Shown here piece by piece: positions 1,362-62,510 of a stretch of DNA of 64,000 nt. Origin of the DNA: an uncultured virus (IMG/VR IMGVR_UViG_3300027782_000075) (Duplodnaviria > Heunggongvirae > Uroviricota > Caudoviricetes); IMG/VR virus record IMGVR_UViG_3300027782_000075. The stretch is one strand, 5' to 3'. A model generated the notes under the pieces. That model was not told the DNA's origin and searched no databases. It saw only the letters and a list, made by a program, of their open reading frames with translations. Position 1 is the first letter of the stretch, and each line of letters opens with the position of its first letter. A program made the position numbers and the translations under genes.

Positions 1362-1415
1362 CGATAAAAGTTACATAGTTGTGATATTTATTGGTAAGTA
1401 AATTACCAATATACT

Positions 1416-1667
1416 ATGAAAAAATTCTTATCTCAGTTGTTCGATGACAACAACACAATCAATGAAAAAAGCGTCGTAGGGTTTATGGCGTTTGTAATGA
1501 TGACAGGATTCGCAATTGCGGATATTGTTACAGGAACTTTAGGTAAAGACCTAGTGATAAACGAATTCATCTTTAACGCCTTCCTATGGCTAGTTCTTGG
1601 TTCCTTCGGAATCGGGTCAGTCGACAAATGGATTAACAAAGGAAAGTCAGACCAAATCGAGGAGTAA
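1416..1667 (+). CDS. Small two-TM membrane protein, possible holin
   Basis: Two hydrophobic segments and a charged C-terminus. TATTTAT upstream and a terminator downstream. Confidence 0.5.
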   Translation: MKKFLSQLFDDNNTINEKSVVGFMAFVMMTGFAIADIVTGTLGKDLVINEFIFNAFLWLVLGSFGIGSVDKWINKGKSDQIEE

Positions 1668-5058: not shown

Positions 5059-5181
5059 AGTAATTTATTTTATATTAATAAATATTGTCTAAAACCAATA
5101 AGATAATTTACCTTAACATAAACTAAAAATTTAGGACAAAATTAAATTTGGTGATATTTATGAATACCAAGATACTATCGA

Positions 5182-5676
5182 ATGAAAATTTTAACCCTTT
5201 TTATGGCGGGCATTATGCTATACATAATGCCTCACATCACCACAAATCTTACTGATGAAATATGGGTTGAATCTGTCGTAAACAAGATTCAAGTGGGAAA
5301 TCTCGCAGGAAATCGAAACTTAGAATTCGGTTTGAGAAATATCACAGAGGAATTTTTACAAGAAAAAAATTTCGATCTAAACCCTGACTCCAAACAAAAA
5401 CTATCTATTGAAATTGTCTACTTGGATGTATTAAAAACCAAGACGAATGTCTCTGTATTTCACAAAGACAGTGAATCTGTTGTAATACGTCTCAGAGGAG
5501 TTTTGAAGGTTGATGGAAAAAAAATCAAAGAAGTTATTGTTGAAGAAGAATCATCTGAGATTTCCATGTCAACACTAATTGTGGACAACGGAGGGAATTT
5601 CAATCAACAATCTTTGAGTAATGCGTTGAAAAAGGCTAGTGATACCTTGGTAACTAAACTATTTGAAACAAATTAA
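5182..5676 (+). CDS. Exported protein, first gene of the envelope operon
   Basis: N-terminal hydrophobic signal and an alpha/beta pattern. Confidence 0.6.
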   Translation: MKILTLFMAGIMLYIMPHITTNLTDEIWVESVVNKIQVGNLAGNRNLEFGLRNITEEFLQEKNFDLNPDSKQKLSIEIVYLDVLKTKTNVSVFHKDSESVVIRLRGVLKVDGKKIKEVIVEEESSEISMSTLIVDNGGNFNQQSLSNALKKASDTLVTKLFETN

Positions 5677-18902: not shown

Positions 18903-19157
18903 TTACTCAGAAACCAAAAATACTGGATTTTGTTCACCAGCATAAAGCCCGATGATGTTATAATCAAAAAATTCCATCGCTTCAGTCATAGTCATTAAAT
19001 CTCTTTCACATAAAATGTTAAGGATTTTGTTTTTGGAATAAAGGATGCGAGGTCCGTTTCCGAACTCCTCAACAATCCCAATGATTGCCTCGTCAAGTCC
19101 ATCAAGGATGATGGCACCTTCAGCGTATTCGTGGATGTCGTAGTCGTTGATTGTCAT
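18903..19157 (-). CDS. Conserved hypothetical phage protein
   Basis: Motifs DGLDEAIIG and EFFDYNIIG.Y.GE..P. Confidence 0.7.
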   Translation of the reverse strand: MTINDYDIHEYAEGAIILDGLDEAIIGIVEEFGNGPRILYSKNKILNILCERDLMTMTEAMEFFDYNIIGLYAGEQNPVFLVSE

Positions 19158-19169
19158 AGTAGTTAAATA

Positions 19170-19244
19170 ACAAGTGAGCCCGTAAACTGAGGCGATAAAT
19201 AAATTACCAAGATACTATCGGATGAAAATACGGAACTCACTTGT
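19170..19244 (-). ncRNA. Hairpin leader or small RNA with loop antisense to late-gene start regions
   Basis: Stems ACAAGTGAG/CTCACTTGT and CCGTA/TACGG. 19205-19229 matches 5165-5189 at 24/25 nt. Confidence 0.6.
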
Positions 19245-19252
19245 ATATTACA

Positions 19253-19281
19253 ATAATAGATTTTCCACTTAAAATTGTCAA
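19253..19281 (-). promoter_or_regulatory. Promoter TTGACA-N17-TATTAT driving the minus-strand operon
   Basis: Consensus-like -35 and -10 elements with 17-bp spacing; start would fall at the hairpin base. Confidence 0.6.
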
Positions 19282-19329
19282 ATGAAAAAAATGAAAAAAT
19301 AAAAGTATTTATAAATAAAACTATTAGTT

Positions 19330-26334: not shown

Positions 26335-26406
26335 GGACCCGTAGCTCAGAGGAAGAGCAGCGCTCTCATAAAGCGAAGGTCGGGATATCATGATTCCCCG
26401 GGTCCA
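26335..26406 (+). tRNA. tRNA with CAT anticodon (Met or Ile2), non-canonical T-loop
   Basis: Acceptor GGACCCG/CGGGTCC; loop CT-CAT-AA; T-loop ATCATGA. Confidence 0.7.
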
Positions 26407-26433
26407 CAAACAATTAAACTAAAACAAACTACA

Positions 26434-27165
26434 ATGAAAATCAAAAAATTAATCCTATCAGTTGTAACCCTATCCGTATTTTTAATTTCTTGTTCTAAAG
26501 AAGAAATTAATGGTAGTGAAATCACTCCTATCAATAATATGGAACATGCGACCATGTCAACATCAAGTATTGGTGGAGAACAAACACCTTTGAGAGCATA
26601 TATTTTTGTGGAACCAATGTCGAAACATGTGATGATTAAAAACCATTTGAATAAGTTACCATTTATTGGAAGACTCCCATTTGTTGGATTTCATGGTGTT
26701 AATGCAGGTGCATGGAAAGATAACTTACCAAATTATATTAATATGACTCATTGGATTGATGGTAGATTACCACAAATTATGCAAGTTGACATTCCCCAAA
26801 CAAGTGGAGGAATCGATACATTTGGTAATCCTGTTCAAGCTTTCAATTTCAAAACTGTTAAAATAACAAAAAATACAGTAAATGATAAATTTTCTTGGAT
26901 TATAGTTCTTATACCAATTAATGCGATGAGTAACGATACAAAAAGACAAAGAAGGATACGTATTGATGAAAAGGCGGGTAATATAACAAAATCTTCAACA
27001 ATTTTTACAACTGATAATGTTATGTCAGAAACTGTGATTAACTATAATGGTAATCGTATTCCGGCAGGTCAATATAGGGTTTATTCAACTTATCCATCAA
27101 GTGGTATGAGACTGAATTTGAACTCAACAAATGATGTTTATATTAGAGGTTTTAGTAACCAATAA
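26434..27165 (+). CDS. Putative lipoprotein
   Basis: Lipobox LISC. Confidence 0.7.
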   Translation: MKIKKLILSVVTLSVFLISCSKEEINGSEITPINNMEHATMSTSSIGGEQTPLRAYIFVEPMSKHVMIKNHLNKLPFIGRLPFVGFHGVNAGAWKDNLPNYINMTHWIDGRLPQIMQVDIPQTSGGIDTFGNPVQAFNFKTVKITKNTVNDKFSWIIVLIPINAMSNDTKRQRRIRIDEKAGNITKSSTIFTTDNVMSETVINYNGNRIPAGQYRVYSTYPSSGMRLNLNSTNDVYIRGFSNQ

Positions 27166-27172
27166 TTAATAC

Positions 27173-27247
27173 GCTCCTAAAGCATTGCTGGCGATGCACA
27201 TGACTTGTAATCATGATAACTTGGTTCGATTCCGAGTGGGAGCTCCA
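27173..27247 (+). tRNA. tRNA-Thr(TGT)
   Basis: Cloverleaf; CATGA-CTTGTAA-TCATG; encoded CCA. Confidence 0.9.
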
Positions 27248-27250
27248 ACA

Positions 27251-27426
27251 GTACTTACTACGCTACCCATAAGAACAGCGTCCCAGGGTAAGTCGTGTAC
27301 CTCGATGTTAACCGTAAGAACAACACAGAGGTTGTATCGTGATATAAGTGAATAGCCCAAGGTATAAGCTAAAATCACACCCCTAACCTCTATTCAAATG
27401 ACGATTTGATTATGTTAGGTTTTTTT
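27251..27426 (+). ncRNA. Candidate structured RNA with tandem hairpins sharing a 12-nt loop
   Basis: Loops ACCCATAAGAAC and AACCGTAAGAAC on different stems. Confidence 0.5.
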
Positions 27427-27514
27427 GGAGAGATGGCAGAGTTGGCCGATTGCACCTGACTTGAAATCAGGAGTACCTGTGAGGGTACCGTGGGTTCGAA
27501 TCCTACTCTCTCCT
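27427..27514 (+). tRNA. tRNA-Ser(TGA)
   Basis: CCTGA-CTTGAAA-TCAGG, long variable arm, GGTTCGAATCC. Confidence 0.92.
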
Positions 27515-27521
27515 CATCATA

Positions 27522-27616
27522 ATTGTGACGATTCGAAAGAATGACGGAACGGACGCTAAGAATGAAATGGAAACTGAAGGATTATCCTTGGAAACAAACC
27601 GTACAGACGTTACAAT
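27522..27616 (+). ncRNA. Candidate structured RNA, GGA-rich
   Basis: Closing stem ATTGTGACG/CGTTACAAT, a GAAA tetraloop hairpin and five GGA motifs. Confidence 0.4.
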
Positions 27617-27638
27617 CTTTTTCACAAATTAAATCATA

Positions 27639-27992
27639 ATGGCACATCCAAACTTACATGCAAAATCATCCGCCAAAAAGTTTGGTGGAAAACCTGAGGA
27701 CTACATTCATTTACATGAATGGTTAGACGAAACCAAGTCATGGTTTGGTGATTCCTTACATAGAATGTTTCGGCACCATAGTGAGGGGATATTCGAAATG
27801 GAAAAAAGGTTTGGTACCGAATTCAAAAACTCAGATGGAAAAACGGTTTATACTCGTTATGTTGGAGAACAACATATCAAGGAAGATTGTAATAACTACA
27901 TTCCATCAGCCAAAGAATGGGTTAACAACATGATGTCCAATCAAAGACCACAGTGGATGTTGAAGACCATTAAATTAGAATTCGAAGACTGA
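27639..27992 (+). CDS. DUF6915-like protein
   Basis: MAHP..HAKSSAKKFGG..EDY..LH.W.D; HR..RHHSEGIF. Confidence 0.75.
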   Translation: MAHPNLHAKSSAKKFGGKPEDYIHLHEWLDETKSWFGDSLHRMFRHHSEGIFEMEKRFGTEFKNSDGKTVYTRYVGEQHIKEDCNNYIPSAKEWVNNMMSNQRPQWMLKTIKLEFED

Positions 27993-28003
27993 TATTTATT
28001 TGT

Positions 28004-28702
28004 ATGTCACAAAATATATTAACACCAGAAGAAAAAAAATATTTAGGAAAAATATCAAGGTTTCTTAGATCGATGGGAATGAGATATGGAGAAATTCAAT
28101 TTGAAATGGAACCGGACCAAGAGGGAATTGCGTACAGTCCAAACGATTTTCCAACTCATTTTGAAAATAATTATACCGCAGAAATACCGGACGGCCTTGT
28201 ACCAATATTGAAAAAAATTATTGACTATGTTGATGATGATGGGTTATATAGCGAGGTACCTTATGATGGTTACCTCATTTATCAAAGATTTGACATTACA
28301 ATTAATGCTATGTCAGGAGAAATATCTTTAACACACTCCTATAGTTATCAAATTGAGGGAGGTTCACAAGGTATCGAATACGATGATATGATTGAAGAGT
28401 GGGAAGAAAAAGGAGTTTTCAATGATACCGAAATTCCTGAAGACAATTATTTGGTCTTGAAGTATAATGGAGGTGGAGATAGTGGATACATCGAATCGAA
28501 TTTTGAGAATGGAGAACCTGTACCAACCGAAGTAGAAGAATGGTGTTATCAACAATTGGAAGATAACTTCGCAGGCTGGGAGATAAATGAAGGATCTCAA
28601 GGTGAATTCCAATTTGATTTTAATGAAAAAACAGTTATATTATCACACGCATACAACATTGAAGAATCTAGATCCAACACACTGTGGGAAGAAGAATTTT
28701 AG
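28004..28702 (+). CDS. Acidic protein with DUF6878-like C-terminus
   Basis: Motifs YNGGGDSGYIE and GWEINEGSQG. Confidence 0.6.
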   Translation: MSQNILTPEEKKYLGKISRFLRSMGMRYGEIQFEMEPDQEGIAYSPNDFPTHFENNYTAEIPDGLVPILKKIIDYVDDDGLYSEVPYDGYLIYQRFDITINAMSGEISLTHSYSYQIEGGSQGIEYDDMIEEWEEKGVFNDTEIPEDNYLVLKYNGGGDSGYIESNFENGEPVPTEVEEWCYQQLEDNFAGWEINEGSQGEFQFDFNEKTVILSHAYNIEESRSNTLWEEEF

Positions 28703-28719
28703 AATGATTTATTAAATTT

Positions 28720-29370
28720 ATGGTGGAAACAACAATTATCAACGAAGATTTTAGAAACTGCGACATACCAACAGGATTAACAATAACCGACCCACCTTAT
28801 AATCAAGAATATTCATACAACGAATACAAAGACAAGTTAACTGAACAGGATTATATTGAGTTATTATCCAAAATCCCAACTCCTTGTGTCATTATTCATT
28901 ACCCAGAAGAAACAATCAACTTGTTACCAAAGGCAATAAATGATAAATGTGAACAGGTTGTTTGTTGGGTGTATAACTCCAACACAGGGAAACAAAGTCG
29001 ATTGATATCATGGTGGGGTTGTAAGCCGGACTTCAGGAAAGTCAGACAGGAATATAAAAATCTCAAAGACAAACGTATTCAAAAAAGAATTGCTGAAGGA
29101 AAGACTGGTGCCAAACTTTATGATTGGTGGGAAATTAATCAGGTAAAGAATGTCAGCAAAGAAAAAACCGAACACCCTTGTCAAATTCCTGAGGAAGTAA
29201 TCCGAAGAATTATTTTGACAACCGCACAACCAAATCAAACAATTATTGATGTGTTCGGTGGAAGTGGGACGACAAGTAAGGTAGCTCAAGAGTTGGGATT
29301 CAACTCAATTAGTTATGAAATCGATGAGAAGTATTGTGAAATTATGAAACATCGGGTTGAAAGTATCTGA
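28720..29370 (+). CDS. DNA methyltransferase (N6-A/N4-C, beta-type)
   Basis: TDPPY precedes HPCQIP and DVFGGSGTT. Confidence 0.9.
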   Translation: MVETTIINEDFRNCDIPTGLTITDPPYNQEYSYNEYKDKLTEQDYIELLSKIPTPCVIIHYPEETINLLPKAINDKCEQVVCWVYNSNTGKQSRLISWWGCKPDFRKVRQEYKNLKDKRIQKRIAEGKTGAKLYDWWEINQVKNVSKEKTEHPCQIPEEVIRRIILTTAQPNQTIIDVFGGSGTTSKVAQELGFNSISYEIDEKYCEIMKHRVESI

Positions 29371-29379
29371 AACTTTCAT

Positions 29380-29387
29380 TATATTTG
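29380..29387 (+). promoter_or_regulatory. Bacteroidota sigma-A -7 element TAnnTTTG (also at 26253, 30299, 30664, 33799, and 39081 on minus)
   Basis: Motif recurs upstream of RNA genes and early-type genes. Confidence 0.65.
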
Positions 29388-29396
29388 TAGAATAAT

Positions 29397-29717
29397 GTCC
29401 GGGTGATGAAATCGGTAGACATGCAAGACTTTAGAGGTAGACATGAATACTTTTATTAAAGTATTAAAGTTTACAAAATTGAGTGCCTGAGGGGAAACCT
29501 TCAGAGTAGAATTCCTCAAATTCGGTGAACCTTTTGAAATGGGAATACCGAGCGAAGCCCGAGAGGGAACGTGTAGAGACTAGACGGGGAACACCTAAAT
29601 CGAGAGATATGGTGAAGGTATAGTCCAGACCACAAACCGTGAGGGTAGTGAAAACTATAGTGGTAAGAAAATCTTGTGGCTTAGGCCGTGCGGGTTCAAG
29701 TCCCGCCCCGGATACCA
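29397..29717 (+). tRNA. trnL: tRNA-Leu(TAA) split by a group I intron (exons 29397-29431 and 29668-29717)
   Basis: Joined exons give CAAGA-CT T^AA AA-TCTTG, a Leu-type variable arm, T-arm and CCA. Confidence 0.9.
29432..29667 (+). mobile_element. Group I self-splicing intron (trnL-UAA type), no ORF
   Basis: P AAATTCGGTGAA, Q AATACCGAGC, R GTGTAGAGACTAGACGGG, S GAAGGTATAGTCC. Exon ends in U and intron ends in G. Confidence 0.9.
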
Positions 29718-29753
29718 AACACTATCGTTCTTTGGAATAAAGGAGAAAATTAT

Positions 29754-30005
29754 ATGGATTTAGTATCATTTATTTTAGGAATGTCTATAGTTGTGGTCAT
29801 TGCTGTGGCAGTGGTTGCGGTTATTGCTTTTGTTAGAGTGAATAAACAGAAGGAAGAAATTAAACAAATAAATCAGTTTCTCGCAAGAGAAATTGAAAAT
29901 CAAATGAGAGATCGTGATAGAATTATTGACGATATTTATCGAACAATCGATTCACGACTTGATAAACTTGAAAGTAGATTGAACGCCGCAAGGCATAAAG
30001 ATTAA
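29754..30005 (+). CDS. N-terminal TM coiled-coil protein
   Basis: Start at MDLVS with AAGGAG upstream; enclosed by a long inverted repeat. Confidence 0.65.
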   Translation: MDLVSFILGMSIVVVIAVAVVAVIAFVRVNKQKEEIKQINQFLAREIENQMRDRDRIIDDIYRTIDSRLDKLESRLNAARHKD

Positions 30006-30043
30006 ATAAAAACTTTCAAAGACGATAGTGTTATTCACATATT

Positions 30044-30205
30044 ATGTTCGGATTATTCAAGAAAAAAACAGAAAAAGAAAAATTACAGGAAACTTATGAG
30101 AAAATGATGGCAGATGCTTATAAATTATCTCATACAAACAGAACCGCATCTGACAAACTTCTGGCTGAAGCCGAAGAACTTGCGAAAAAAATATACGGTC
30201 AGTAA
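30044..30205 (+). CDS. Lacal_2735-family-like small protein (53 aa; not in ORF track)
   Basis: MFGLFKKKTEKEKLQETYEKMMADAYKLSHTNRTASDKLLAEAEELAKKIYGQ resembles the flavobacterial family from memory. Confidence 0.7.
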   Translation: MFGLFKKKTEKEKLQETYEKMMADAYKLSHTNRTASDKLLAEAEELAKKIYGQ

Positions 30206-30210
30206 TATTT

Positions 30211-30285
30211 GTCCCCGTAGCTCAGCTGGATAGTAGCGATTGCCTTCTAAGCAATAGGTCACACGTTCGAATCGTGTCGGGGATA
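30211..30285 (+). tRNA. tRNA-Arg(TCT)
   Basis: ATTGC-CTTCTAA-GCAAT; full cloverleaf. Confidence 0.92.
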
Positions 30286-30310
30286 CAAAATATTTCAGTA
30301 TATTTGTATT

Positions 30311-30399
30311 GTGATTGAGGAGCACGATTTAGATACACAAGCTCAATTACAAACTGGGTGACACGGGAACGATTCAGATACTAGTGTTACCCTTTTTTT
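30311..30399 (+). ncRNA. Candidate ~90-nt small RNA of two hairpins with shared ACGATTYAGATAC loop
   Basis: Own TATATTTG promoter; the second hairpin is followed by a U tract. Confidence 0.55.
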
Positions 30400-30468
30400 A
30401 TTAGATATCAGAATAAATAATTTTACAAAATAAAAATATTTCATACATTAGAAGTACTTATCAATACA

Positions 30469-30558
30469 ATGAGAACTACAAGTCAACATATTAACAGTAA
30501 TAGTCAACAAGAGAATTGTTGTTATGAAAGTATTTGCCCTGTAGTTCGGATGTCATAG
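30469..30558 (+). CDS. Putative attenuator leader peptide (29 aa)
   Basis: MRTTSQHINSNSQQENCCYESICPVVRMS*, overlapping alternative pairing segments. Confidence 0.55.
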   Translation: MRTTSQHINSNSQQENCCYESICPVVRMS

Positions 30559-30594
30559 AAAGTAATTTTTTAATTTAAGTTAAATTAAATTTTT

Positions 30595-30631
30595 AGACCC
30601 CGAACTCTTAAAAAAAGTTTGGGGTTTTTTT
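30595..30631 (+). terminator. Intrinsic terminator (attenuator 3:4 hairpin)
   Basis: AGACCCCGAACT/AGTTTGGGGTTT plus T run. Confidence 0.75.
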
Positions 30632-30683
30632 ATGACATGTTTTTGTTCTTTGAAATATTGTAGTATCTTTGTAAGACAAACAT

Positions 30684-30757
30684 GCTCCGGTCGTCTAATT
30701 GGTTAGGACATCCCCCTTTCACGGGGAAGCTTACGGGTTCGAGTCCCGTCCGGAGTA
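30684..30757 (+). tRNA. tRNA-Glu(TTC)
   Basis: TCCCC-CTTTCAC-GGGGA; cloverleaf. Confidence 0.92.
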
Positions 30758-30882
30758 CTGACACGAGAGGCAACCGAAGGCATACTAGACACTGTTTAGG
30801 CAATGGGAACGATCACACAGAATACCTCTCTCTCGTAGGTAAGTTTCAAGTTCTGTTGACTGTGGGGAAAGTCCCACTCTAT

Positions 30883-30971
30883 AGTCAGGTGGTGTAATGG
30901 TAGCACTCGGTGAAGTAGACGCAGTAATGTAGTCCCAATCCGTAGTACAGGTTCGAATCCTGTTCTTACTA
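30883..30971 (+). ncRNA. tRNA-like RNA 1 (AGTCAGG family), no canonical anticodon arm
   Basis: D-arm, T-arm ACAGG-TTCGAAT-CCTGT and acceptor-like stem; central arm ~35 nt. Confidence 0.6.
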
Positions 30972-30985
30972 CAAATAAAAAATAT

Positions 30986-31120
30986 ATGAAATGGATTATT
31001 AGACAATTTGGAAACGTATGGTGTTTATTTGTACATGGCTTTGTTTTAGATAAACACAAAATGCATAAAGCATATGGACCACAAGAATGTCAAAAATGTG
31101 GTAGGTGGTGGGATTTATAA
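30986..31120 (+). CDS. Small putative zinc-binding protein (44 aa; not in ORF track)
   Basis: MKWIIRQFGNVWCLFVHG...ECQKCGRWWDL*. Confidence 0.5.
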   Translation: MKWIIRQFGNVWCLFVHGFVLDKHKMHKAYGPQECQKCGRWWDL

Positions 31121-31127
31121 TAGTCAG

Positions 31128-31352
31128 GTGAAAAAATTAAAAGTTGTGGAAAAAGAAATAAGTAAAGAAACTGATGAGTTTATTGATAAATTAGACCATC
31201 TGTGTTGGGAACATGGCTTTGAAATTTGGCCAACTGACACTATTAACAAAAGAAATGAAGACGGCTCATATCCCACCTTTACTATTCATAATATAGGTAG
31301 TGGTGAAACAGTAAGATTGATATATGTCGATGGTGACGGAAGAGGTAAATAA
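31128..31352 (+). CDS. Hypothetical protein
   Basis: Likely GTG start inside an AGTCAGGTG copy. Confidence 0.45.
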   Translation: MKKLKVVEKEISKETDEFIDKLDHLCWEHGFEIWPTDTINKRNEDGSYPTFTIHNIGSGETVRLIYVDGDGRGK

Positions 31353-31359
31353 TTAGGCT

Positions 31360-31468
31360 AGTCAGGTGGCGGAATTGGTAGACGCTAGGGAGTTGGTACA
31401 AAAACTCTATCAGATGCATTGATAATGTACCTCATACATCATACAGGTTCGAATCCGGTTCTAACTAC
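31360..31468 (+). ncRNA. tRNA-like RNA 2 (AGTCAGG family) with extra central hairpins
   Basis: Leu-like D-arm GCGGAATTGGTAGACGC and GGTTCGAATCC. Confidence 0.6.
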
Positions 31469-31538
31469 GCAAAAAACAAATAAGATGGAGTTTCTTTACC
31501 CTTTCGAGGATGAGTTTTAGAAATCTAAATTATTATAT

Positions 31539-31610
31539 GGTGGCCGTAGCCTAGTGGGAGGGCGGAAGTTTGTGGCACTTCAGGTAAGAGTTCGATTCTC
31601 TTCGGTCACA
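31539..31610 (+). tRNA. tRNA-His(GTG)
   Basis: GAAGT-TTGTGGC-ACTTC; encoded G-1; A at position 73. Confidence 0.85.
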
Positions 31611-31614
31611 CAAC

Positions 31615-31682
31615 AGTCAGGTGGTGTAAATGGCAGCACACAGTAGTTAACTGAGGAGCGGGTTAGAAACCCGTCCTGACAC
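31615..31682 (+). ncRNA. tRNA-like RNA 3 (AGTCAGG family), shortened anticodon arm
   Basis: GTCAGG/CCTGAC stem, D-arm, CAG-TAGTTAA-CTG arm, T-loop TTAGAAA. Confidence 0.55.
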
Positions 31683-31691
31683 CTTATCAAT

Positions 31692-31765
31692 GGTCAGATA
31701 CCCAAGTGGCTTAAGGGGCTTGTCTGCAAAACAAGTATCCATCGGTTCGAATCCGATTCTGACCT
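31692..31765 (+). tRNA. tRNA-Cys(GCA)
   Basis: CTTGT-CTGCAAA-ACAAG; U73. Confidence 0.92.
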
Positions 31766-31783
31766 CATTTAATTAATTAAAAT

Positions 31784-32200
31784 ATGAAAATTGTAATTGT
31801 AAGCGGTTATTTTAATCCTGTTCATAAGGGACATATTGAATATTTCAATAAGTCCAAAGAACATGGTGATAAACTCTATGTTATCGTCAATAACGACAAA
31901 CAGAGAGAGTTGAAAGGTAGTAAAGAATTCCAAGATGAAGATGAAAGAATGTTCATCATCCAAAACCTTAAAATGGTTGATAGAGTATTTCTTTCAGTTG
32001 ACACAGATCGAACTGTGTGTAAGACAATCGAATTGATCCATTCTTTTGGGGATAGGGACGACGAATTCTTATTTGCCAATGGTGGGGACCAAAACAATAA
32101 TAGCATCCCTGAGACACCTATTTGTGATTGGTTGGGGGTTAAATTGATTGATGGACTTGGAGATAAAATCCAATCTTCATCTTGGTTGTTGAAGAAGTAA
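31784..32200 (+). CDS. Cytidylyltransferase-family (HxGH) nucleotidyltransferase
   Basis: Motifs SGYFNPVHKGH, VIVNND, FANGGD and KIQSSS. Confidence 0.85.
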   Translation: MKIVIVSGYFNPVHKGHIEYFNKSKEHGDKLYVIVNNDKQRELKGSKEFQDEDERMFIIQNLKMVDRVFLSVDTDRTVCKTIELIHSFGDRDDEFLFANGGDQNNNSIPETPICDWLGVKLIDGLGDKIQSSSWLLKK

Positions 32201-32271
32201 ACATCTATGGTGAAATGGCATCATACCGGATTCCAAACCCGTTGTTCCAAGTTCGAGTCTTGGTGGGTGTG
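32201..32271 (+). tRNA. tRNA-Trp(CCA), weak anticodon stem
   Basis: Acceptor ACATCTA/TGGGTGT; loop TT-CCA-AA; T-arm intact. Confidence 0.7.
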
Positions 32272-32282
32272 CAAAATGTAAA

Positions 32283-32487
32283 CTTCAGTACCCACACAGC
32301 AGTGGAGATGGGCTAAGTTAGATACGATTCCTCGTAGCTGGGAGTAGAATGCTGAAGAACATTTATAGGTTGATTGGGGAAGGAATGTATGTTAACCTGA
32401 TGATGGAGGTGGTACATTTGGAGTTTGGAATCATCGTAGTAATGCCAATCGTAAAAGGAGATGTCCACTGAACCATCTTCTCCTTTT
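32283..32487 (+). ncRNA. Candidate structured RNA(s)
   Basis: Stems CTTCAGTA/TGCTGAAG and GATTGG/CCAATC, a possible GATGAT/ATCATC pseudoknot, and a terminal hairpin. Confidence 0.4.
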
Positions 32488-32562
32488 CCTAATCTTTCAA
32501 AAAAAAATAAATAATTTTTTATTTTGATAGAAAAGTTTTATCTTTGTCTAAAATAATAAATT

Positions 32563-32991
32563 ATGACCATTTCTGAGACACAAAAAAATAAATTTTATGA
32601 GTTAGGGAATACATTACCAAAATGTGTAAATCCTGGATGTGAAAATGATGTTGCAGTCAGAAACTGGGGAAATTGGTCATTCAAATCAGAATGTTCTCGG
32701 TGTCAATCAGACAGAAAAAAGGGATTAATAAGGGAGGGTATCACAATTCATAAAAAAGAATATTGTGAAAATATTGACGGTCATTTAGGATTCAAATGCC
32801 CTGTTCCCACAAAAGAAAGTTGGAAAGGGTTTGAAATAGGATGTTTAGATTTGGACCACATAAATGGAGACCATAATAATAATTCAATTGAAAATGTTAA
32901 AACATATTGTAAATTGTGCCATAATAAAAAGAGCGTCGAAAGCGGCGATTGTTCTAATAAAAAAAAATCCGCAAGAATTTTTAATCACTAA
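32563..32991 (+). CDS. HNH endonuclease
   Basis: LDLDHINGDHNNN..ENVKTYCKLCH with N-terminal Cys pairs. Confidence 0.8.
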   Translation: MTISETQKNKFYELGNTLPKCVNPGCENDVAVRNWGNWSFKSECSRCQSDRKKGLIREGITIHKKEYCENIDGHLGFKCPVPTKESWKGFEIGCLDLDHINGDHNNNSIENVKTYCKLCHNKKSVESGDCSNKKKSARIFNH

Positions 32992-33788
32992 TGGAACAAA
33001 AAATTATTCATGAAGATTGTATTCAGGGGCTTAAAAAAATAAAAAATGAGATTATAAATCTAACATGGACATCACCACCATATTATAACGCTAAATCATA
33101 TAGTGAATGGCCAACATATCAAGACTATCTTGATTTCTTAAAAGATGTTTTCTCTGAAGTTTTTAGAGTTACTTTGCCAGGTAGAATGTGTATTGTGAAT
33201 CTTTCACCTGTAATTGTTCAAAGAGAATCTAGATCACATGAAAGTAAAAGATTGGCAATCCCTTTTCATTTTTTCACAATTATGGAATCTTTGGGTTGGA
33301 AATATATTGATGATATTGTTTGGGTTAAACCCGAAGGTTCTGCCATAAATAGAAACGGGGGGTTTTATCAACATCGTAAACCTGTTGCGTATAAACCTAA
33401 TTTAGTATCTGAAACTATTTTTGTATTTCAAAAACCAGCGAATTTTTTGATAGACAAAATTGTTAGGTCATATAATGGTGAAGATTTGGAAAAATCATTA
33501 GTTAAAGGTCACTATGAAAGGAGTAATGTTTGGTTAATCAACCCTGAAACAAAATCAAAACATTTAGCTCCATACCCTGAAAAACTATCGGATAATATAA
33601 TCCAATATTATTCTTTCTACGGAGATATTGTTTTAGACCCTTTTTTGGGATCAGGAACAACTTTACTTTCCTGTGAAAAATATGGTAGGAATGGTATTGG
33701 TTATGAAATTCATAAGGAATATGTGGAAATGTCTGAAAAAAGAATAGAAGAATATAGAAAGAACAATAATCAACAAGAATTATTTTAA
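32991..33788 (+). CDS. DNA methyltransferase (N4-C type, beta)
   Basis: Motifs TSPPY, HLAPYP and LDPFLGSGTT. Confidence 0.92.
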   Translation: MEQKIIHEDCIQGLKKIKNEIINLTWTSPPYYNAKSYSEWPTYQDYLDFLKDVFSEVFRVTLPGRMCIVNLSPVIVQRESRSHESKRLAIPFHFFTIMESLGWKYIDDIVWVKPEGSAINRNGGFYQHRKPVAYKPNLVSETIFVFQKPANFLIDKIVRSYNGEDLEKSLVKGHYERSNVWLINPETKSKHLAPYPEKLSDNIIQYYSFYGDIVLDPFLGSGTTLLSCEKYGRNGIGYEIHKEYVEMSEKRIEEYRKNNNQQELF

Positions 33789-33815
33789 GAAAACTTACTA
33801 TCTTTGTCGCGATTT

Positions 33816-33850
33816 GGACTCTACAGCAGGTTCGAGTCCTATCGGTCCCA
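33816..33850 (+). pseudogene. Mini tRNA remnant (acceptor plus T-arm only)
   Basis: GGACT...AGGTTCGAGTCCT...GGTCC behind a TATCTTTG promoter. Confidence 0.45.
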
Positions 33851-33851
33851 C

Positions 33852-33932
33852 AAGACAGACACACGCTTCCCACGGTGTTAAAGTACAAGGATAATGAAGA
33901 GAATAATACGTCTCCTAAGGTCTGTCTAAACT
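33852..33932 (+). repeat. 81-nt structured element, copy 1
   Basis: Identical to 35105-35185; closed by AGACAGAC/GTCTGTCT. Confidence 0.9.
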
Positions 33933-34002
33933 GTCTCATGGTGTAACGGTAGCACAAGTCACTTTGGTTGACTTAGTTCAGGTTCGAATCCTGATGAGAT
34001 AT
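33932..34002 (+). tRNA. tRNA-Gln(TTG)
   Basis: AGTCA-CTTTGGT-TGACT; cloverleaf. Confidence 0.9.
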
Positions 34003-34007
34003 CAAGT

Positions 34008-34056
34008 TATTCATGTTCCAAAACATGAAAAAACAGTAAGTTTTGGAACATGAATA
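34008..34056. repeat. Perfect 17-bp inverted repeat between tRNAs
   Basis: TATTCATGTTCCAAAAC / GTTTTGGAACATGAATA. Confidence 0.8.
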
Positions 34057-34140
34057 GAGAATTGCCTGAGTGGTTAAAGGAGCAGATTGCTAATCTGTCA
34101 TCTCGAAAGGGATGCATTGGTTCGAATCCAATATTCTCTG
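34056..34140 (+). tRNA. tRNA-Ser(GCT)
   Basis: GCAGA-TTGCTAA-TCTGT, long variable arm, G73. Confidence 0.9.
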
Positions 34141-34145
34141 CATTT

Positions 34146-34288
34146 TGTAAGGTGTTGAAATTGGCAGACAATCCCCGCCTGTCTCGTGGGGGAGGATCAT
34201 CTGATAAACGAAGGATAATGGGTTGACCACAATCATGTAATGTCCTTTGGCTAAAGACCTCGTGGTGGTTCGAATCCATCTCTTACAG
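34146..34288 (+). tRNA. tRNA-Asp(GTC)-like RNA with ~70-nt variable-region expansion
   Basis: Acceptor TGTAAGG/TCTTACA, G73, CCCCGC-CTGTCTC-GTGGGG, T-arm GGTGG-TTCGAAT-CCATC. Confidence 0.65.
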
Positions 34289-34297
34289 CATAAAAAA

Positions 34298-34371
34298 GCG
34301 GGTATAGCTCAATTGGCTAGAGTGCCGTCCTTCCAAGTCGGAAGTTGTGAGTTCGAATCTCACTACCCGCT
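34298..34371 (+). tRNA. tRNA-Gly(TCC)
   Basis: GCGGGTA/TACCCGC; CT-TCC-AA; U73. Confidence 0.92.
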
Positions 34372-34387
34372 CTTTTACTTACAATAA

Positions 34388-34461
34388 TGGAATATAGCTC
34401 AGTTGGTTAGAGCGCTATCCTGATACGGTAGATGTCGGTGGTTCGAGTCCACCTATTCCAA
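34388..34461 (+). tRNA. tRNA-Ile(GAT)
   Basis: CTATC-CTGATAC-GGTAG; cloverleaf. Confidence 0.9.
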
Positions 34462-34462
34462 C

Positions 34463-50906: not shown

Positions 50907-52667
50907 GTGAACAAAGAACAATTAATTATAGAATATACGAAGTGTATGAGGAGTACTCCTTATGCACTTCGTTCTTATTTACAGACATACGATAATACAG
51001 TATCAAAGTATGTCCCATTAGAACTTTTTCCTGACCAAGTTTCACTACTTGAAGATTACGAAAGCTACAACGAAAACATTGCATTAAAATACAGACAAGC
51101 GGGGGTTTCAACTGTAACCGCGGCTTGGGCGTCAAAAAAACTTGCGTTTGCAAGAAAGGAAAAACCTGAAAAAGTTCTAATCATCGCCAACAAGTTGGAT
51201 ACTTCTGTGGAAATGGCCAACAAAATAAGGGCATTTATTGAACAATGGCCTGATTGGGTTGATATAAGATTCTCTGTGGAAAAAAACTCCCAAAGACATT
51301 TCAAACTAAATAATGGATGTGAAGTTAAAGCGGTGGCAACATCCAAAGATGCTCTTAGAGGTTATACACCAACAATTCTTATTTTTGACGAAGCCGCCTT
51401 TATCGAGGCAGATGGAGACTTTTGGTCTGCTTGTATGGCTTCACTATCCACGGGTGGTAAAGTTATTGTAGTTTCCACACCAAACGGTTACGACCCAATC
51501 TATTATGAAATATATGACCAAGCATTAAGAGGAATGAATGATTTCAAAATCTCTGAAATGTTTTGGTATCGAGACCCTCGTTATACCAAAGATTTGTACA
51601 TGGTAAAGACAAATGATTTGGTTCATTATCTTTTGAATCGAGAAGATTATCCAATAGATACCGTAATTAACTTATCCAATAATAATCCTTATGATAGAGA
51701 CCATACTATTGTAACAGATTATATTTCCCAAGGATATAAACCTTGTTCTGCATGGTTTGAGGGAATGGTAAAAAAGCTCAAGTACGATAGACGTAAAGTT
51801 GCTCAAGAACTTGAATGTAACTTCTTAGGATCGGGTGATAACGTATTCGATTCAGATCTAATGCAGAACATTTCCAAAAACCAATTAAGACCTCCACAAG
51901 CTAAACTTATGGGTAACGCTCTGTGGATTTTTAAGGAACCTGTAAATGGACATAAATATGTTATGGGGGTTGACGTTTCTCGTGGTGACTCTGAGGATTT
52001 TTCATCAATCCAAATTATTGATTTTGATGAACGGGAACAAGTATTAGAATATGTTGGTAAAATCCCTCCCGATGTTTTAGCAGAAATTGCTTATAAGTGG
52101 GGGACAATGTACAATGCATTCTGTGTAATTGATATTACAGGAGGTATGGGAGTTTCAACCGCCAGAAAAATGCAAGAATTACAATATCAACCCGGATTGT
52201 ATGTTGATGGAGTCGATACTTCTAACAAATGGAAGTGGGACCCGAAAATAAATGAAAAAATTCCTGGTATCAACTTCAACACAAAAAGAGTTCAAATTAT
52301 AGCCGCATTTGAAGAGGGGGTTAGACACGGATTTAAGATATATTCACATAGAACGTATAATGAGATGAATACCTTTGTATATATTCATGGAAGACCTGAT
52401 CACCAAAAAGGACAACATGATGATTGTATCATGGGTCTTTCCATGGCAATTTATGTTGCAGAGAAGTCATTTCAGTCATTAACAAAAGTTGTTAACCACA
52501 CAAAAGCCATGTTGAATTCGTGGTCTACTGTGATGAATGAAAATAAAAATACTTCAGATTTTTTTAATCCATTGGTACCTCAGATGGGAAGAGACTCCAA
52601 CTTGAGTAATAATGGGGCATCCAAAGCGGATTACCAAAAATATGGTTGGTTATTTGGTGCTAAATAA
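50907..52667 (+). CDS. Terminase large subunit (T4 gp17-like)
   Basis: Motifs KYRQAGVST, IFDEAAF, VSTPNG, QELECNF, GVDVSRG and HDDC. Confidence 0.93.
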   Translation: MNKEQLIIEYTKCMRSTPYALRSYLQTYDNTVSKYVPLELFPDQVSLLEDYESYNENIALKYRQAGVSTVTAAWASKKLAFARKEKPEKVLIIANKLDTSVEMANKIRAFIEQWPDWVDIRFSVEKNSQRHFKLNNGCEVKAVATSKDALRGYTPTILIFDEAAFIEADGDFWSACMASLSTGGKVIVVSTPNGYDPIYYEIYDQALRGMNDFKISEMFWYRDPRYTKDLYMVKTNDLVHYLLNREDYPIDTVINLSNNNPYDRDHTIVTDYISQGYKPCSAWFEGMVKKLKYDRRKVAQELECNFLGSGDNVFDSDLMQNISKNQLRPPQAKLMGNALWIFKEPVNGHKYVMGVDVSRGDSEDFSSIQIIDFDEREQVLEYVGKIPPDVLAEIAYKWGTMYNAFCVIDITGGMGVSTARKMQELQYQPGLYVDGVDTSNKWKWDPKINEKIPGINFNTKRVQIIAAFEEGVRHGFKIYSHRTYNEMNTFVYIHGRPDHQKGQHDDCIMGLSMAIYVAEKSFQSLTKVVNHTKAMLNSWSTVMNENKNTSDFFNPLVPQMGRDSNLSNNGASKADYQKYGWLFGAK

Positions 52668-52668
52668 C

Positions 52669-52675
52669 TATTTAT
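52669..52675 (+). promoter_or_regulatory. Putative late promoter TATTTAT (also 5155, 11391, 19306, 22252, 45650, 56008, 57052, 60516)
   Basis: Recurs shortly upstream of structural gene starts, on the coding strand in both orientations. Confidence 0.6.
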
Positions 52676-52703
52676 ATTACTGAGGTAAAGAGTAAATTAG
52701 ATT

Positions 52704-54548
52704 ATGGCAGAACAAAATATGACGGTTTGGCAAAGACTGTCACAAACATTTGGACCTAACTCATTATTAAATCAAGACTATCCAACATTCAAGTTTGATA
52801 AAAAGGAACTCCTACGCACAAAAAGTAGAGAGGAGTATGAGAAAGAAAAACTTCAAGCACAACAAACATATTATCTTACCAATCAGTGGTCTAAGGTTGA
52901 AAATAACCTTTATTCTCAGGCGATTTATTATGAACCTACAAGGTTATCTGCTCAGTATGACTACGAATCAATGGAATACACTCCTGAGATTTCCGCAGCA
53001 TTAGACATTTATGCCGAAGAGTCAACTACAACAAATGAGGACGGTTTCATATTACAAATTTATTCAGAATCTAAAAGAATTAAGGGAGTTCTTGCCGATT
53101 TATTTAACAATGCTTTAGACATCAACACCAATTTACCTATGTGGACAAGAAACACATGTAAATATGGTGATAACTTTGTATATCTGAAATTAGACCCTGA
53201 AAAAGGAATTGTTGGGGTACAACAATTACCGACTATTGAAATTGAAAGACATGAGGTTGGAGCAAGTGGTAAAATATCTGTCGATGTAAAAAATGAAGTA
53301 GATAAAGATAAAAAGGCGTTACACTTCACATGGAAAAATAAAAATATGGAATTCCAATCTTGGGAAATTGCTCACTTCAGATTATTAGGTGATGACAGAA
53401 AACTTCCATATGGAACTTCCATGTTAGAAAAAGCAAGACGTATTTGGAAACAACTTTTACTATCAGAAGATGCGATGTTAATTTATCGTACATCAAGAGC
53501 CCCTGAGAGAAGAATGTTCAAAGTATTCGTTGGAAACATGAATGATGACGATGTTGAGGCTTATGTACAACGTGTTGCCAACAAGTTCAAAAGAGAACAA
53601 ATTGTTGATAGTAAAACAGGTAACGTAGATATGAGATTCAATCAAATGGCGGTTGACCAAGATTATTTTATTCCTGTAAGAGACCCCGCAGCGCCAGACC
53701 CAATCTCAACATTACCTGGAGCAACTAACTTATCTGAAATTGCCGATATTGAATATATCCAAAAGAAATTGTTAACCGCCCTCCGAGTACCAAAGGCTTT
53801 CTTAGGATTTGAAGAAGTTGTTGGTGATGGTAAAAATTTGGCGTTACAAGATATACGATTTGCTCGTACCATCAACAGAATTCAAAAGAGTATGATTGCC
53901 GAATTGAATAAAATTGCAATTGTACATTTATTTTTATTAGGATTTGAAGACGAACTTTCAAATTTCACAATTGGATTAACAAATCCATCTACTCAAGCGG
54001 ATTTACTTAAAATTGATGTTTGGAAAGAGAAAGTATTATTGTATAAAGATTTGGTTTCTGATCCAGGAAATGGAATTCAGGCAACTTCATCTACATGGGC
54101 TAAGAAGCATATTTTTGGATGGTCAGATGACGAAGTTCGTTTGGACTTACAACAACAAAGAATTGAAAGAGCCGTTGGAGAAGAATTAAAAGCGACTCCA
54201 ACTGTTATAACAAAAACTGGATTGTTTGATAATATTGACAAATTATATGGTAGCCAAACAGGGTCAACACCAACGGCAGGAGCTTCTACGACAATGGACG
54301 GAGGAGAGGAATTAGGATCTCCACCATCATTTGGAGGAGGTGGTGGTGAGATACCTGGAGGAGAACCCGAGTTACCTCCAGCAGGTGAAGCTCCTCCCGC
54401 CGAAATAACACCAGAATCAAGGAAAAAAGATCTAAATATTTTAGTGGAAAATAATTTAATTGAAGGGTCTCGAATAATAAATTTGGGTCAGGGACAAGAT
54501 TCTTTAGGAGAAATTTCAAAACACTTAGATAAGTTATTAAATTCATAA
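52704..54548 (+). CDS. Portal protein (T4 gp20-like)
   Basis: LSEDAMLIYRTSRAPERRMF, DYFIPVR, TLPGATNL, IEYIQKKL..ALRVP. Confidence 0.93.
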   Translation: MAEQNMTVWQRLSQTFGPNSLLNQDYPTFKFDKKELLRTKSREEYEKEKLQAQQTYYLTNQWSKVENNLYSQAIYYEPTRLSAQYDYESMEYTPEISAALDIYAEESTTTNEDGFILQIYSESKRIKGVLADLFNNALDINTNLPMWTRNTCKYGDNFVYLKLDPEKGIVGVQQLPTIEIERHEVGASGKISVDVKNEVDKDKKALHFTWKNKNMEFQSWEIAHFRLLGDDRKLPYGTSMLEKARRIWKQLLLSEDAMLIYRTSRAPERRMFKVFVGNMNDDDVEAYVQRVANKFKREQIVDSKTGNVDMRFNQMAVDQDYFIPVRDPAAPDPISTLPGATNLSEIADIEYIQKKLLTALRVPKAFLGFEEVVGDGKNLALQDIRFARTINRIQKSMIAELNKIAIVHLFLLGFEDELSNFTIGLTNPSTQADLLKIDVWKEKVLLYKDLVSDPGNGIQATSSTWAKKHIFGWSDDEVRLDLQQQRIERAVGEELKATPTVITKTGLFDNIDKLYGSQTGSTPTAGASTTMDGGEELGSPPSFGGGGGEIPGGEPELPPAGEAPPAEITPESRKKDLNILVENNLIEGSRIINLGQGQDSLGEISKHLDKLLNS

Positions 54549-62473: not shown

Positions 62474-62510
62474 TATTTTGAATTGACGGTATATTTATTG
62501 TTACAAAGTT

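What the first reader, a model, noticed from the sequence alone, without database searches (positions are those of the whole stretch)
52679..52699. Portal leader may be a second target of the same antisense hairpin
Seen: portal 5' UTR ACTGAGG-TAAAGAG-TAAATTA versus 19186-19206 ACTGAGG-CGATAAA-TAAATTA. As a duplex with the minus-strand RNA, 19 of 21 positions pair. Three of the five differences become G-U wobbles in that orientation, against only one in the opposite orientation. Inference: the loop is a two-address guide (portal plus envelope operon), suggesting RNA-based timing of late gene translation.
Basis: partly seen in the sequence, partly recalled or inferred. Interest (0 to 1): 0.7.

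Follow-up and report, generated by a model that had tools for sequence, protein, structure and literature searches.

The report
Phage small RNA; portal not its target
The resemblance between the portal gene's leader and the hairpin loop is what chance gives, but the hairpin is a real, conserved phage small RNA whose loop is antisense to the start regions of two other late genes.

Summary
The match is no better than chance. It occurs in 41% of simulated windows. Of 54 control guides from other intergenic regions, 70% match some leader equally well. The portal leader ranks 5th of 98 by duplex energy. The two 7-mers are not conserved: both occur together in 2 of 77 related portal leaders, and CCTCAGT in 2 of 38 RNA variants. 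In 14 own-genome pairs only 4 portal leaders beat shuffles.

The hairpin itself (19170-19244) is real. On the minus strand it has a sigma-70-like promoter (11 of 12 matches). Its closing helix is kept in 38 of 38 variants with 36 different arm pairs, most relatives carry a U-run after it, and the 29-nt core is nearly invariant. It has no Rfam match and is single copy.

The core is antisense to the start regions of two late genes. Gene 5182 encodes a secreted protein with an LptE-like predicted fold, and gene 1416 encodes an 83-aa protein with two hydrophobic segments. This holds in 12 of 12 and 26 of 26 own-genome pairs, and two lineages show matching changes in RNA and target. The multi-target antisense idea survives; the portal address does not.

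The parts
52679..52699 (+). The reported 21-mer in the terminase-portal spacer
   Evidence: Chance-level match. Both 7-mers occur together in 2 of 77 related leaders.
52669..52676 (+). TATTTATA, a late-promoter-like motif directly before the 21-mer
   Evidence: TATTTAT is present in 77 of 77 related portal leaders. It occurs in 22 of 98 window leaders against 1.6 expected.
52704..54548 (+). Portal gene
   Evidence: phrog_213, E 6e-64. Distant T4-type gp20 relatives by tblastn.
19186..19206 (+). The reported 21-mer inside the hairpin. Its first 5 bases lie in the variable part and the rest in the conserved core.
19170..19244 (-). Hairpin body of the small RNA. Closing helix arms are 19170-19184 and 19229-19244.
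   Evidence: Fold z -3.9 and -4.1. Helix kept in 38 of 38 variants with 36 distinct arm pairs. 91.8% of cells paired against 76.0% in shuffles, 0 of 500 shuffles as high.
19191..19219 (-). Nearly invariant 29-nt core of the loop (the antisense 'guide')
   Evidence: Invariant and near-invariant columns in A1. The exact 25-mer occurs in 44 IMG/VR contigs, once each.
19253..19281 (-). Sigma-70-like promoter TTGACA-17-TATTAT pointing into the hairpin
   Evidence: 11 of 12 matches. Both hexamers recur at the same place in the variants printed.
19156..19254 (-). Extent of the covariance-model match (the RNA gene as modelled)
   Evidence: 93.9 bits, E 4e-17. It is the only full match in the window.
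5165..5189 (+). Best target: leader and start codon of gene 5182. 16 contiguous pairs, one mismatch, then ATGAAAAT.
   Evidence: Duplex -45.7 kcal/mol, rank 1 of 98. 20 of 21 identity. ACCAAGATACT in 30 of 32 homolog leaders.
5155..5161 (+). TATTTAT late-promoter-like motif of gene 5182
   Evidence: Present in 31 of 32 homolog leaders.
5182..5676 (+). Target gene: 164-aa protein with a hydrophobic N-terminus and an LptE/PelC-like predicted fold
   Evidence: Model pLDDT 71.8. Foldseek E 6.5e-6 to 5e-4, TM 0.4-0.56.
1392..1409 (+). Second target: leader of gene 1416, 18 contiguous pairs with the core
   Evidence: Duplex -30.9 kcal/mol, rank 2 of 98. Motif in 48 of 79 homolog leaders.
1416..1667 (+). 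Target gene: 83-aa protein with two hydrophobic segments
   Evidence: No Pfam, PHROG or NCBIfam family.
18903..19157 (-). 84-aa gene (phrog_13182) that starts 13 nt after the hairpin on the same strand
   Evidence: Contigs from lake-water RNA libraries bridge this gene and the hairpin.

Best explanation
The likeness between the portal leader and the loop is a chance-level resemblance. It is helped by AT-rich words that many leaders share, and it is not a conserved RNA-RNA address.

The hairpin at 19170-19244 is the body of a conserved small RNA of about 80-95 nt, read from the minus strand. Transcription comes from an early, host-type promoter at 19281-19253. In most relatives the closing helix is followed by a U-run. 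In this window the RNA runs straight into an 84-aa gene.

The nearly invariant 29-nt core of the loop is antisense to the 5' leader and start codon of two late genes, 5182..5676 and 1416..1667. Each of these sits directly behind a late-promoter-like TATTTAT.

Inferred mechanism: the early RNA pairs with these short leaders, covering the ribosome landing site and the AUG. This blocks or delays their translation, or exposes the duplex to a double-strand RNase, until late mRNA outnumbers it.

Shown here: the gene anatomy, the conservation, the complementarity and the joint changes in RNA and target. Inferred: expression, the ends of the RNA, pairing in vivo, and the sign of the effect.
For: Against the portal as a target:
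- 41% of simulated windows hold an equal match, and 70% of 54 pseudo-guides do as well.
- Rank 5 of 98 by duplex energy.
- A 12-nt run is one of about 35 in the window.
- ACTGAGG occurs in 24 of 77 related portal leaders, TAAATTA in 3 and both in 2. CCTCAGT occurs in 2 of 38 RNA variants.
- Own-genome best 21-mer identity is 13-16 in 14 pairs.
- 10 of 14 own-genome pairs are no better than shuffles.

For the RNA gene:
- Promoter with 11 of 12 matches, conserved in the variants printed.
- Closing helix in 38 of 38 variants with 36 distinct arm pairs; 35 of 38 beat all 100 shuffles.
- 6 of 7 aligned pairs carry double changes. Covariation score is 0.424 against 0.176 in shuffles, 0 of 500 as high, and slid controls pair only 37-55% of cells.
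- A U-run follows the helix in most variants.
- Core present in 65 of 79 loci next to the 567-aa gene's homologs.
- One full copy in the window.

For the two targets:
- Energies of -45.7 and -30.9 kcal/mol against a mean of -14.9, sd 5.4.
- 12 of 12 and 26 of 26 own-genome pairs, z -3.4 to -11.4.
- Joint changes in two lineages. In G004 three positions changed in both RNA and leader, and the two remaining differences are G-U compatible. In G017 and G018 the same 2-nt insertion is in both.
- In the 100% complete record G002 the 5182-pairing half of the core has drifted, no 5182 homolog is found, and the variant motif has no second copy.
- In complete records G009 and G012 the 14-mer at 1 mismatch or fewer hits 4 and 3 places, with 0 hits to the reversed control: the RNA locus and the 5182 leader in both, the 1416 leader in G009, and one stray place with no matching ORF start in each.
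- In G012 the target gene is inverted relative to the RNA gene, yet the match is kept.
Against: - No direct evidence of expression, strand or RNA ends. The RNA-library contigs that cover the hairpin cannot show strand and may contain DNA.
- In this window the U-run is degenerate and no terminator-like site was found. Here the element may be only a 5' untranslated region of the 84-aa gene's operon.
- The joint changes in RNA and target could come from gene conversion between two related copies rather than selection for pairing.
- The core is only about half unpaired in predicted ensembles (mean unpaired probability 0.52).
- A test on the direction of transitions was only suggestive: about 9-10 G-U compatible sites against 3.
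- For the portal: 4 of 14 own-genome pairs do beat shuffles (window 6 of 200, G002 0 of 200, G003 2 of 200, one more contig 1 of 200; G002 and G003 give the same leader and energy, so these are 3 distinct sequence pairs). AGTAAA, complementary to an invariant part of the core, is kept in 74 of 77 portal leaders. A weak short-seed contact is therefore not excluded.
- 31 of 79 leaders of 1416 homologs, mostly the more distant ones, lack the motif.
Confidence: 0.68

Rival explanations
1. One reading: the portal leader is a genuine second target of the minus-strand hairpin RNA, which would time portal translation.
For: - 19 of 21 pairs, with wobbles in the right orientation.
- The exact 21-nt duplex is the best non-self site in the window.
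- The window's portal leader beats 194 of 200 shuffles.
- AGTAAA is kept in 74 of 77 portal leaders and is complementary to an invariant part of the core.
- 4 of 14 own-genome pairs are significant.
Against: - Chance-level by three controls.
- Rank 5 of 98.
- The words are not conserved on either side.
- 10 of 14 own-genome pairs are at background, and 4 of them have positive z.
- In 2 of 3 partial records where the hairpin is absent from its usual place, the portal leader still carries AGTAAA.
Confidence: 0.1
2. There is no RNA-RNA regulation. The hairpin locus carries an old inverted copy of a late leader plus the first codons, kept alike by recombination. The hairpin serves only as a 5' stabiliser or attenuator of the early leftward operon.
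For: - The loop contains a leader-like stretch including ATGAA.
- In the window the RNA runs into the 84-aa gene with no clear terminator.
- RNA-library contigs bridge the gene and the hairpin.
- T4-type phages do shuffle promoter and stem-loop cassettes (PMC2839356, passages read).
Against: - The core is far better conserved than its neighbours. It is nearly invariant where the adjacent protein is 37-47% identical.
- The likeness stops at the transcribed leader and leaves out the TATTTAT promoter.
- One core matches two different leaders through different halves.
- The remaining differences lean towards G-U compatible ones.
- The 5182-pairing half has drifted in the one complete genome without a 5182 homolog.
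Confidence: 0.17
3. The shared sequence is a sense-strand operator for a protein, such as a translational repressor. The hairpin locus would display a decoy copy on a plus-strand RNA.
For: The motif sits at the start regions of two genes and in an exposed loop.
Against: No plus-strand promoter motif precedes the hairpin, whereas the minus strand has a conserved promoter and a U-run. The plus strand upstream is antisense to early genes.
Confidence: 0.05

Closest known systems
c4 antisense RNA of phages P1 and P7 (Rfam RF01695)
   Same: A small structured phage RNA whose exposed segments pair with short complementary segments at a ribosome binding site of the phage's own mRNA. The mechanism is recalled; the family, its Rfam number and the Citron and Schuster reference are listed in PMC2864571.
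   Different: - No match to RF01695 or any other Rfam model.
- c4 is cut from the operon it controls in a temperate phage (recalled). This RNA has its own early promoter in a roughly 320-kb T4-type phage and matches two unlinked late genes 14 and 18 kb away.
Cis-antisense RNAs of phages: P22 sar, lambda OOP and aQ, PAK_P4as15 opposite an endolysin gene
   Same: Antisense control of a phage's own genes by pairing at or near the start region, and a proposed role in delaying late or lysis functions (review PMC12197685, section 2 read).
   Different: Those RNAs are transcribed from the opposite strand of their target. Here the RNA gene is separate from both targets, and in one relative the target is inverted relative to it.
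PeSL cassettes (promoter-early stem-loop) of T4-type phages
   Same: A sigma-70-like early promoter next to a stem-loop in an intergenic region of a T4-type genome (PMC2839356, passages read; PMC4122927, abstract read).
   Different: - PeSLs number about 50 per genome, have G/C-tract stems that terminate upstream transcription, and mediate recombination.
- This element is single copy. It lies downstream of its promoter and encloses a conserved loop of about 45 nt.
Trans-acting base-pairing sRNAs of prophages and temperate phages (VpdS, PreS)
   Same: Own promoter, a short structured RNA, and pairing with mRNAs encoded elsewhere (review PMC12197685, section 2).
   Different: Those RNAs mainly act on host genes and depend on Hfq. 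Here the conserved matches are to the phage's own late leaders, with 16-18 contiguous pairs.

Membership tests
Trans-encoded antisense small RNA (general kind) | Own promoter directly upstream | tested here: met
   TTGACA-17-TATTAT, 11 of 12 matches. Hexamers are at the same place in the variants printed. This is a consensus match only; activity was not tested.
Trans-encoded antisense small RNA (general kind) | Defined 3' end (terminator) | tested here: inconclusive
   A U-run follows the closing helix in most relatives. In the window it is degenerate and no terminator-like site was found.
Trans-encoded antisense small RNA (general kind) | Conserved complementarity to a target's translation start region | tested here: met
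   12 of 12 (5182) and 26 of 26 (1416) own-genome pairs, z -3.4 to -11.4. For the portal, 4 of 14 pairs.
Trans-encoded antisense small RNA (general kind) | Joint (compensatory) change of RNA and target | tested here: met
   G004 has three shared substitutions. G017 and G018 share a 2-nt insertion. Gene conversion is not excluded.
Trans-encoded antisense small RNA (general kind) | The RNA is made and changes target expression | not testable with these tools
   Only unstranded contigs from RNA libraries were available.
c4 antisense RNA (RF01695) | Match to the family's covariance model | tested here: not met
   No hit at gathering score over the window. No hit at E up to 10 over 19100-19340.
PeSL cassette | Many repeated copies per genome | tested here: not met
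   One full model match in the window. One exact core per contig in 44 contigs.
PeSL cassette | Stem-loop that terminates transcription coming from upstream of the promoter | tested here: not met
   The helix lies downstream of the promoter's -10 element and encloses about 45 nt.
Intrinsic terminator | Short G+C-rich stem, loop of 3-8 nt, U-run | tested here: not met
   0 sites found in 18800-19500. The loop is about 45 nt.

The most novel reading that the evidence does not exclude
An early-transcribed small RNA of an uncultured clade of roughly 320-kb freshwater T4-type phages acts as a threshold timer. It holds back translation of two envelope-directed late proteins: a holin-like protein with two hydrophobic segments, and a secreted protein with an LptE-like fold. 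Both are released only once late mRNA outnumbers the RNA. This would be RNA-based control of late membrane events in a virulent phage. The portal could be a weak third client through the conserved AAGUAAA box.
Probability: 0.3. Interest if true: 0.75.

Novelty: new member of a known kind. Interest (0 to 1): 0.55.

Why it matters
The finding as given, the portal as a target, can be set aside. What stands in its place is an undescribed RNA family with no Rfam match. It has a clear gene anatomy and two conserved targets that change together with it.

According to the review read, known phage antisense RNAs are mostly cis-encoded or act on host genes. My two literature searches did not surface a separately encoded RNA aimed at a virulent phage's own late genes.

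If confirmed, this would give a testable case of RNA-based timing of membrane-active late proteins. It would also give a simple sequence rule (core against leader) for finding more such cases in metagenomes.

Tried and rejected
- DNA-level relatives in the phage collection: none for either locus.
- Rfam: only tRNAs at gathering score. At the locus, one weak chance-level hit (Ms_IGR-7, 18.5 bits against a cut-off of 45).
- Inner helix of the loop (CGATA with TATCG in the window): it is not kept in register in several variants (read), so I dropped it.
- Extra RNA gene copies: the model's matches at 5117-5210 and 1359-1450 (about 30 bits, mispaired stems) are the antisense of the two target leaders, not further genes.
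- Direction-of-transition test for the strand of pairing: about 9-10 G-U compatible sites against 3. These are not independent events, so the result is only suggestive. In the closing helix there are 20 G-U cells against 11 A-C cells, which is also not decisive.
- Metatranscriptomes: four lake or freshwater RNA libraries were laid. None of the contigs covers 19251-19277, and three stop at 19226-19232. No DNA run was laid beside them and contigs carry no strand, so this is not used as evidence.
- Records where the hairpin is missing from its usual place (G025-G029): the model finds it nowhere on them and no 1416 homolog is found. These records are only 24-47% complete, so this shows little.
- Function of the targets by sequence: nothing in Pfam, PHROGs, NCBIfam, PDB sequences or the Atlas.
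- The 14-mer search also returned stray hits without an ORF start (L303, L306, L307). I judged these to be chance.
- Rows dropped: 3 of the 80 portal loci were left out because they lack an upstream region or the first residues (L012, L052, L053). 3 of the 35 loci of 5182 homologs (L187, L191, L192) and 1 of the 80 loci of 1416 homologs (L208) were left out for the same reason.

Full report
**1. The observation**

Both 21-mers are at the stated coordinates and share 16 of 21 bases. Read directly, a duplex between the portal-leader mRNA and the minus-strand copy of 19186-19206 turns the five differences into U-G, A-C, A-A, G-U and G-U. That gives 19 of 21 pairs with three wobbles. The opposite orientation gives one wobble.

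The gene at 52704-54548 is a portal (phrog_213, E 6e-64). It is preceded by the large terminase gene at 50907-52667. The 'leader' is therefore a 36-nt spacer inside a late operon.

**2. Is the match more than chance? No.**

- The 16 of 21 match is the best hit of this 21-mer in the window, followed by five hits at 15. However, 82 of 200 simulated 64-kb windows with the same dinucleotide make-up contain a hit of 16 or more.
- I cut 54 'pseudo-guides' of 58 nt from 27 other intergenic regions. Of these, 38 (70%) have a 21-mer match of 16 or more to one of the 98 leaders.
- The exact 21-nt duplex (-17.9 kcal/mol) is the best non-self site among 127,960 positions. It is followed at once by -17.3, -17.2, -17.2, -16.8 and so on, so it heads a smooth tail.
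- With the whole loop as guide, the portal leader ranks 5th of 98 leaders (-22.0 kcal/mol; mean -14.9, sd 5.4).
- Its longest run of pairs with the conserved core is 12 nt, one of about 35 such runs in the window.
- TAAATTA occurs in 9 of 98 leaders against 1.6 expected. Half of the match is a common leader word.

**3. Conservation of the portal site**

The phage collection holds no DNA-level relative. IMG/VR holds hundreds of relatives. I read 77 of the 80 portal loci; three lacked an upstream region.

- TATTTAT directly after the terminase stop is present in 77 of 77, and AGTAAA in 74 of 77.
- ACTGAGG is present in only 24, TAAATTA in 3, and both in 2.
- On the other side, CCTCAGT is present in 2 of 38 distinct hairpin variants.
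- For 14 genomes or contigs I could pair the hairpin with the portal leader of the same record. The best 21-mer identity is 13-16. Duplex z-scores against 200 shuffles run from +0.58 to -3.4.
- Four pairs are better than about 97% of shuffles: the window, G002, G003 and one further contig. G002 and G003 give the same leader and energy, so they are not independent. Ten pairs are not better than shuffles.

The portal address is not conserved.

**4. What the hairpin is**

The region 19158-19262 folds well on either strand (z -3.9 and -4.1). It lies between an 84-aa gene on the minus strand and a 567-aa gene on the plus strand.

- In 65 of 79 loci fetched through the 567-aa gene's homologs, the same element sits at the same place.
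- It has 38 distinct versions including the window's. The adjacent protein's identity to the window's falls as low as 37%.
- A 29-nt core (19191-19219) is nearly invariant, while the flanks vary yet always pair.
- The closing helix is found in 38 of 38 versions, with 36 different arm pairs and a mean energy of -19.5 kcal/mol. In 35 of 38 versions no shuffle out of 100 does as well.
- On the alignment, 6 of 7 pairs show changes on both sides. 91.8% of cells pair, against 76.0% in shuffles (0 of 500 as high) and 37-55% when the partner is slid.
- On the minus strand a TTGACA-17-TATTAT promoter ends at 19253 (11 of 12 matches). Its hexamers recur in the variants printed.
- In most relatives the helix is followed by a run of 5-10 U.
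- The window holds a single full copy (93.9 bits). The exact 25-mer core occurs once in each of 44 IMG/VR contigs.
- No Rfam family matches.
- In the window the U-run is degenerate and the 84-aa gene starts 13 nt after the helix, so the RNA may continue as an mRNA leader there.
- Contigs from three lake-water RNA libraries do bridge that gene and the hairpin. They show neither strand nor transcription.

**5. What the loop matches**

A search for the core found two further copies on the plus strand. Both lie in the leaders of plus-strand genes, each directly behind TATTTAT. That motif stands before 22 of 98 ORF starts against 1.6 expected, including head genes. I read it as the late promoter. 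T4's late promoter is TATAAATA, which I recall rather than take from a tool.

- Gene 5182..5676: 16 contiguous pairs, one mismatch, then the start codon and five more bases. Duplex -45.7 kcal/mol, rank 1 of 98; 20 of 21 identity.
- Gene 1416..1667: 18 contiguous pairs. Duplex -30.9 kcal/mol, rank 2.
- The two leaders use different, overlapping halves of the core.
- The leader motifs are conserved: ACCAAGATACT in 30 of 32 leaders of 5182 homologs, and AGTAAATT(A/G)CCA in 48 of 79 leaders of 1416 homologs. The 31 without it are mostly the more distant ones.
- In pairs from the same record, 12 of 12 (5182) and 26 of 26 (1416) leaders beat the shuffles, with z -3.4 to -11.4.

**6. Joint change of RNA and target**

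- In G004 the core and the leader of the 5182 homolog share three derived substitutions relative to all other lineages. Their two remaining differences are both G-U compatible for a minus-strand RNA on a plus-strand mRNA.
- In G017 and G018 the same 2-nt insertion is present in both the core and the leader, although the protein is only 44% identical to the window's.
- In G002, rated 100% complete, the 5182-pairing half of the core has diverged. No 5182 homolog is found and the variant motif has no second copy.
- In complete records G009 and G012, the 14-mer with up to one mismatch hits 4 and 3 places, with 0 hits for the reversed control. These are the RNA locus and the 5182 leader in both records, the 1416 leader in G009, and one stray site without a matching ORF start in each.
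- In G012 the target gene is inverted relative to the RNA gene, so the relation does not depend on genome arrangement.

**7. The targets**

- The 83-aa product has two hydrophobic segments and a charged tail. This is a holin-like layout, which is my inference. It has no family hit.
- The 164-aa product has a hydrophobic N-terminus. Its model is of moderate confidence (pLDDT 71.8, pTM 0.67, from 13 sequences).
- The model's best structural matches are LptE, PelC, PqiC and similar envelope lipoproteins (Foldseek E 6.5e-6 to 5e-4, TM 0.4-0.56).
- An endolysin gene lies next to it, divergently, at 4231-5058.

**8. Mechanism and rivals**

Best reading (0.68): an early small RNA pairs with the very short leaders of two late, envelope-directed genes. 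It covers the ribosome site and the AUG, and so delays or limits their translation.

Rivals:
- The portal is a true weak client (0.10). It is kept alive by the conserved AGTAAA box and by 4 of 14 significant pairs.
- The shared sequence is a recombination relic, and the hairpin is only a 5' leader structure (0.17).
- The shared sequence is a sense-strand protein operator with a decoy copy (0.05).

Expression, RNA ends, pairing in vivo and the sign of the effect are all inferred.

**9. Comparison with known systems**

The element works like the c4 RNA of P1 and P7 and like the cis-antisense RNAs sar, OOP and PAK_P4as15 (review PMC12197685, section 2 read; c4 and RF01695 as listed in PMC2864571). 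It is not a member of RF01695. Unlike the cis-antisense RNAs, it is encoded apart from its targets.

It is not a PeSL cassette. PeSLs have about 50 copies per genome and stems that terminate upstream transcription (PMC2839356, passages read; PMC4122927, abstract read). This element is single copy and lies downstream of its promoter.

My literature searches returned no description of this RNA. They searched by general terms only, so this is not proof that none exists.

**10. Verdict**

The underlying hairpin is a new, well-supported small RNA family with two conserved late-gene targets.

Noticed in passing
window, 22 of 98 ORF starts (e.g. 11414, 19330, 22278, 44874, 45671, 54570, 56028, 57084, 62511): TATTTAT(A) lies 10-35 nt before many starts, including head genes, against 1.6 expected. 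It is probably this clade's late-promoter word. It differs from T4's TATAAATA, which I recall rather than take from a tool.
   Followed up: partly
window 26335-34462: A cluster of 12-13 tRNA genes on the plus strand. Rfam finds 13 and ARAGORN finds 12.
   Followed up: no
L282-L285 (records G002 and G003): The portal homolog is split in the alignment, at residues 3-93 and 91-614, by about 950 nt. It stays in one 939-aa open frame, which looks like an intein-type insertion.
   Followed up: no
window 5182-5676: A secreted 164-aa phage protein with a predicted LptE/PelC-like fold, next to a divergent endolysin gene at 4231-5058 (PG_binding_1 plus Glyco_hydro_19).
   Followed up: partly
records G002, G009, G012: Complete relatives are 309-326 kb, one with direct terminal repeats. 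The window therefore belongs to a jumbo, distantly T4-type freshwater phage clade. The closest portals among named phages are 37-39% identical.
   Followed up: partly
window 13311-13343 and 62474-62510: Two short divergent intergenic regions carry back-to-back TATTTAT motifs in an inverted repeat. They look like bidirectional late promoters.
   Followed up: no
window 52685-52699 and related portal leaders: An AGTAAA box 10-16 nt before the portal AUG is kept in 74 of 77 relatives while its flanks vary. Its role is unexplained. It persists in 2 of 3 partial records that lack the hairpin at its usual place.
   Followed up: partly
L101, L102, L104-L106, L109, L110, L113, L114, L144, L145: In these relatives the hairpin is missing and the two divergent genes abut. 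Whether the RNA has moved or been lost is open, because the records are 24-47% complete.
   Followed up: partly
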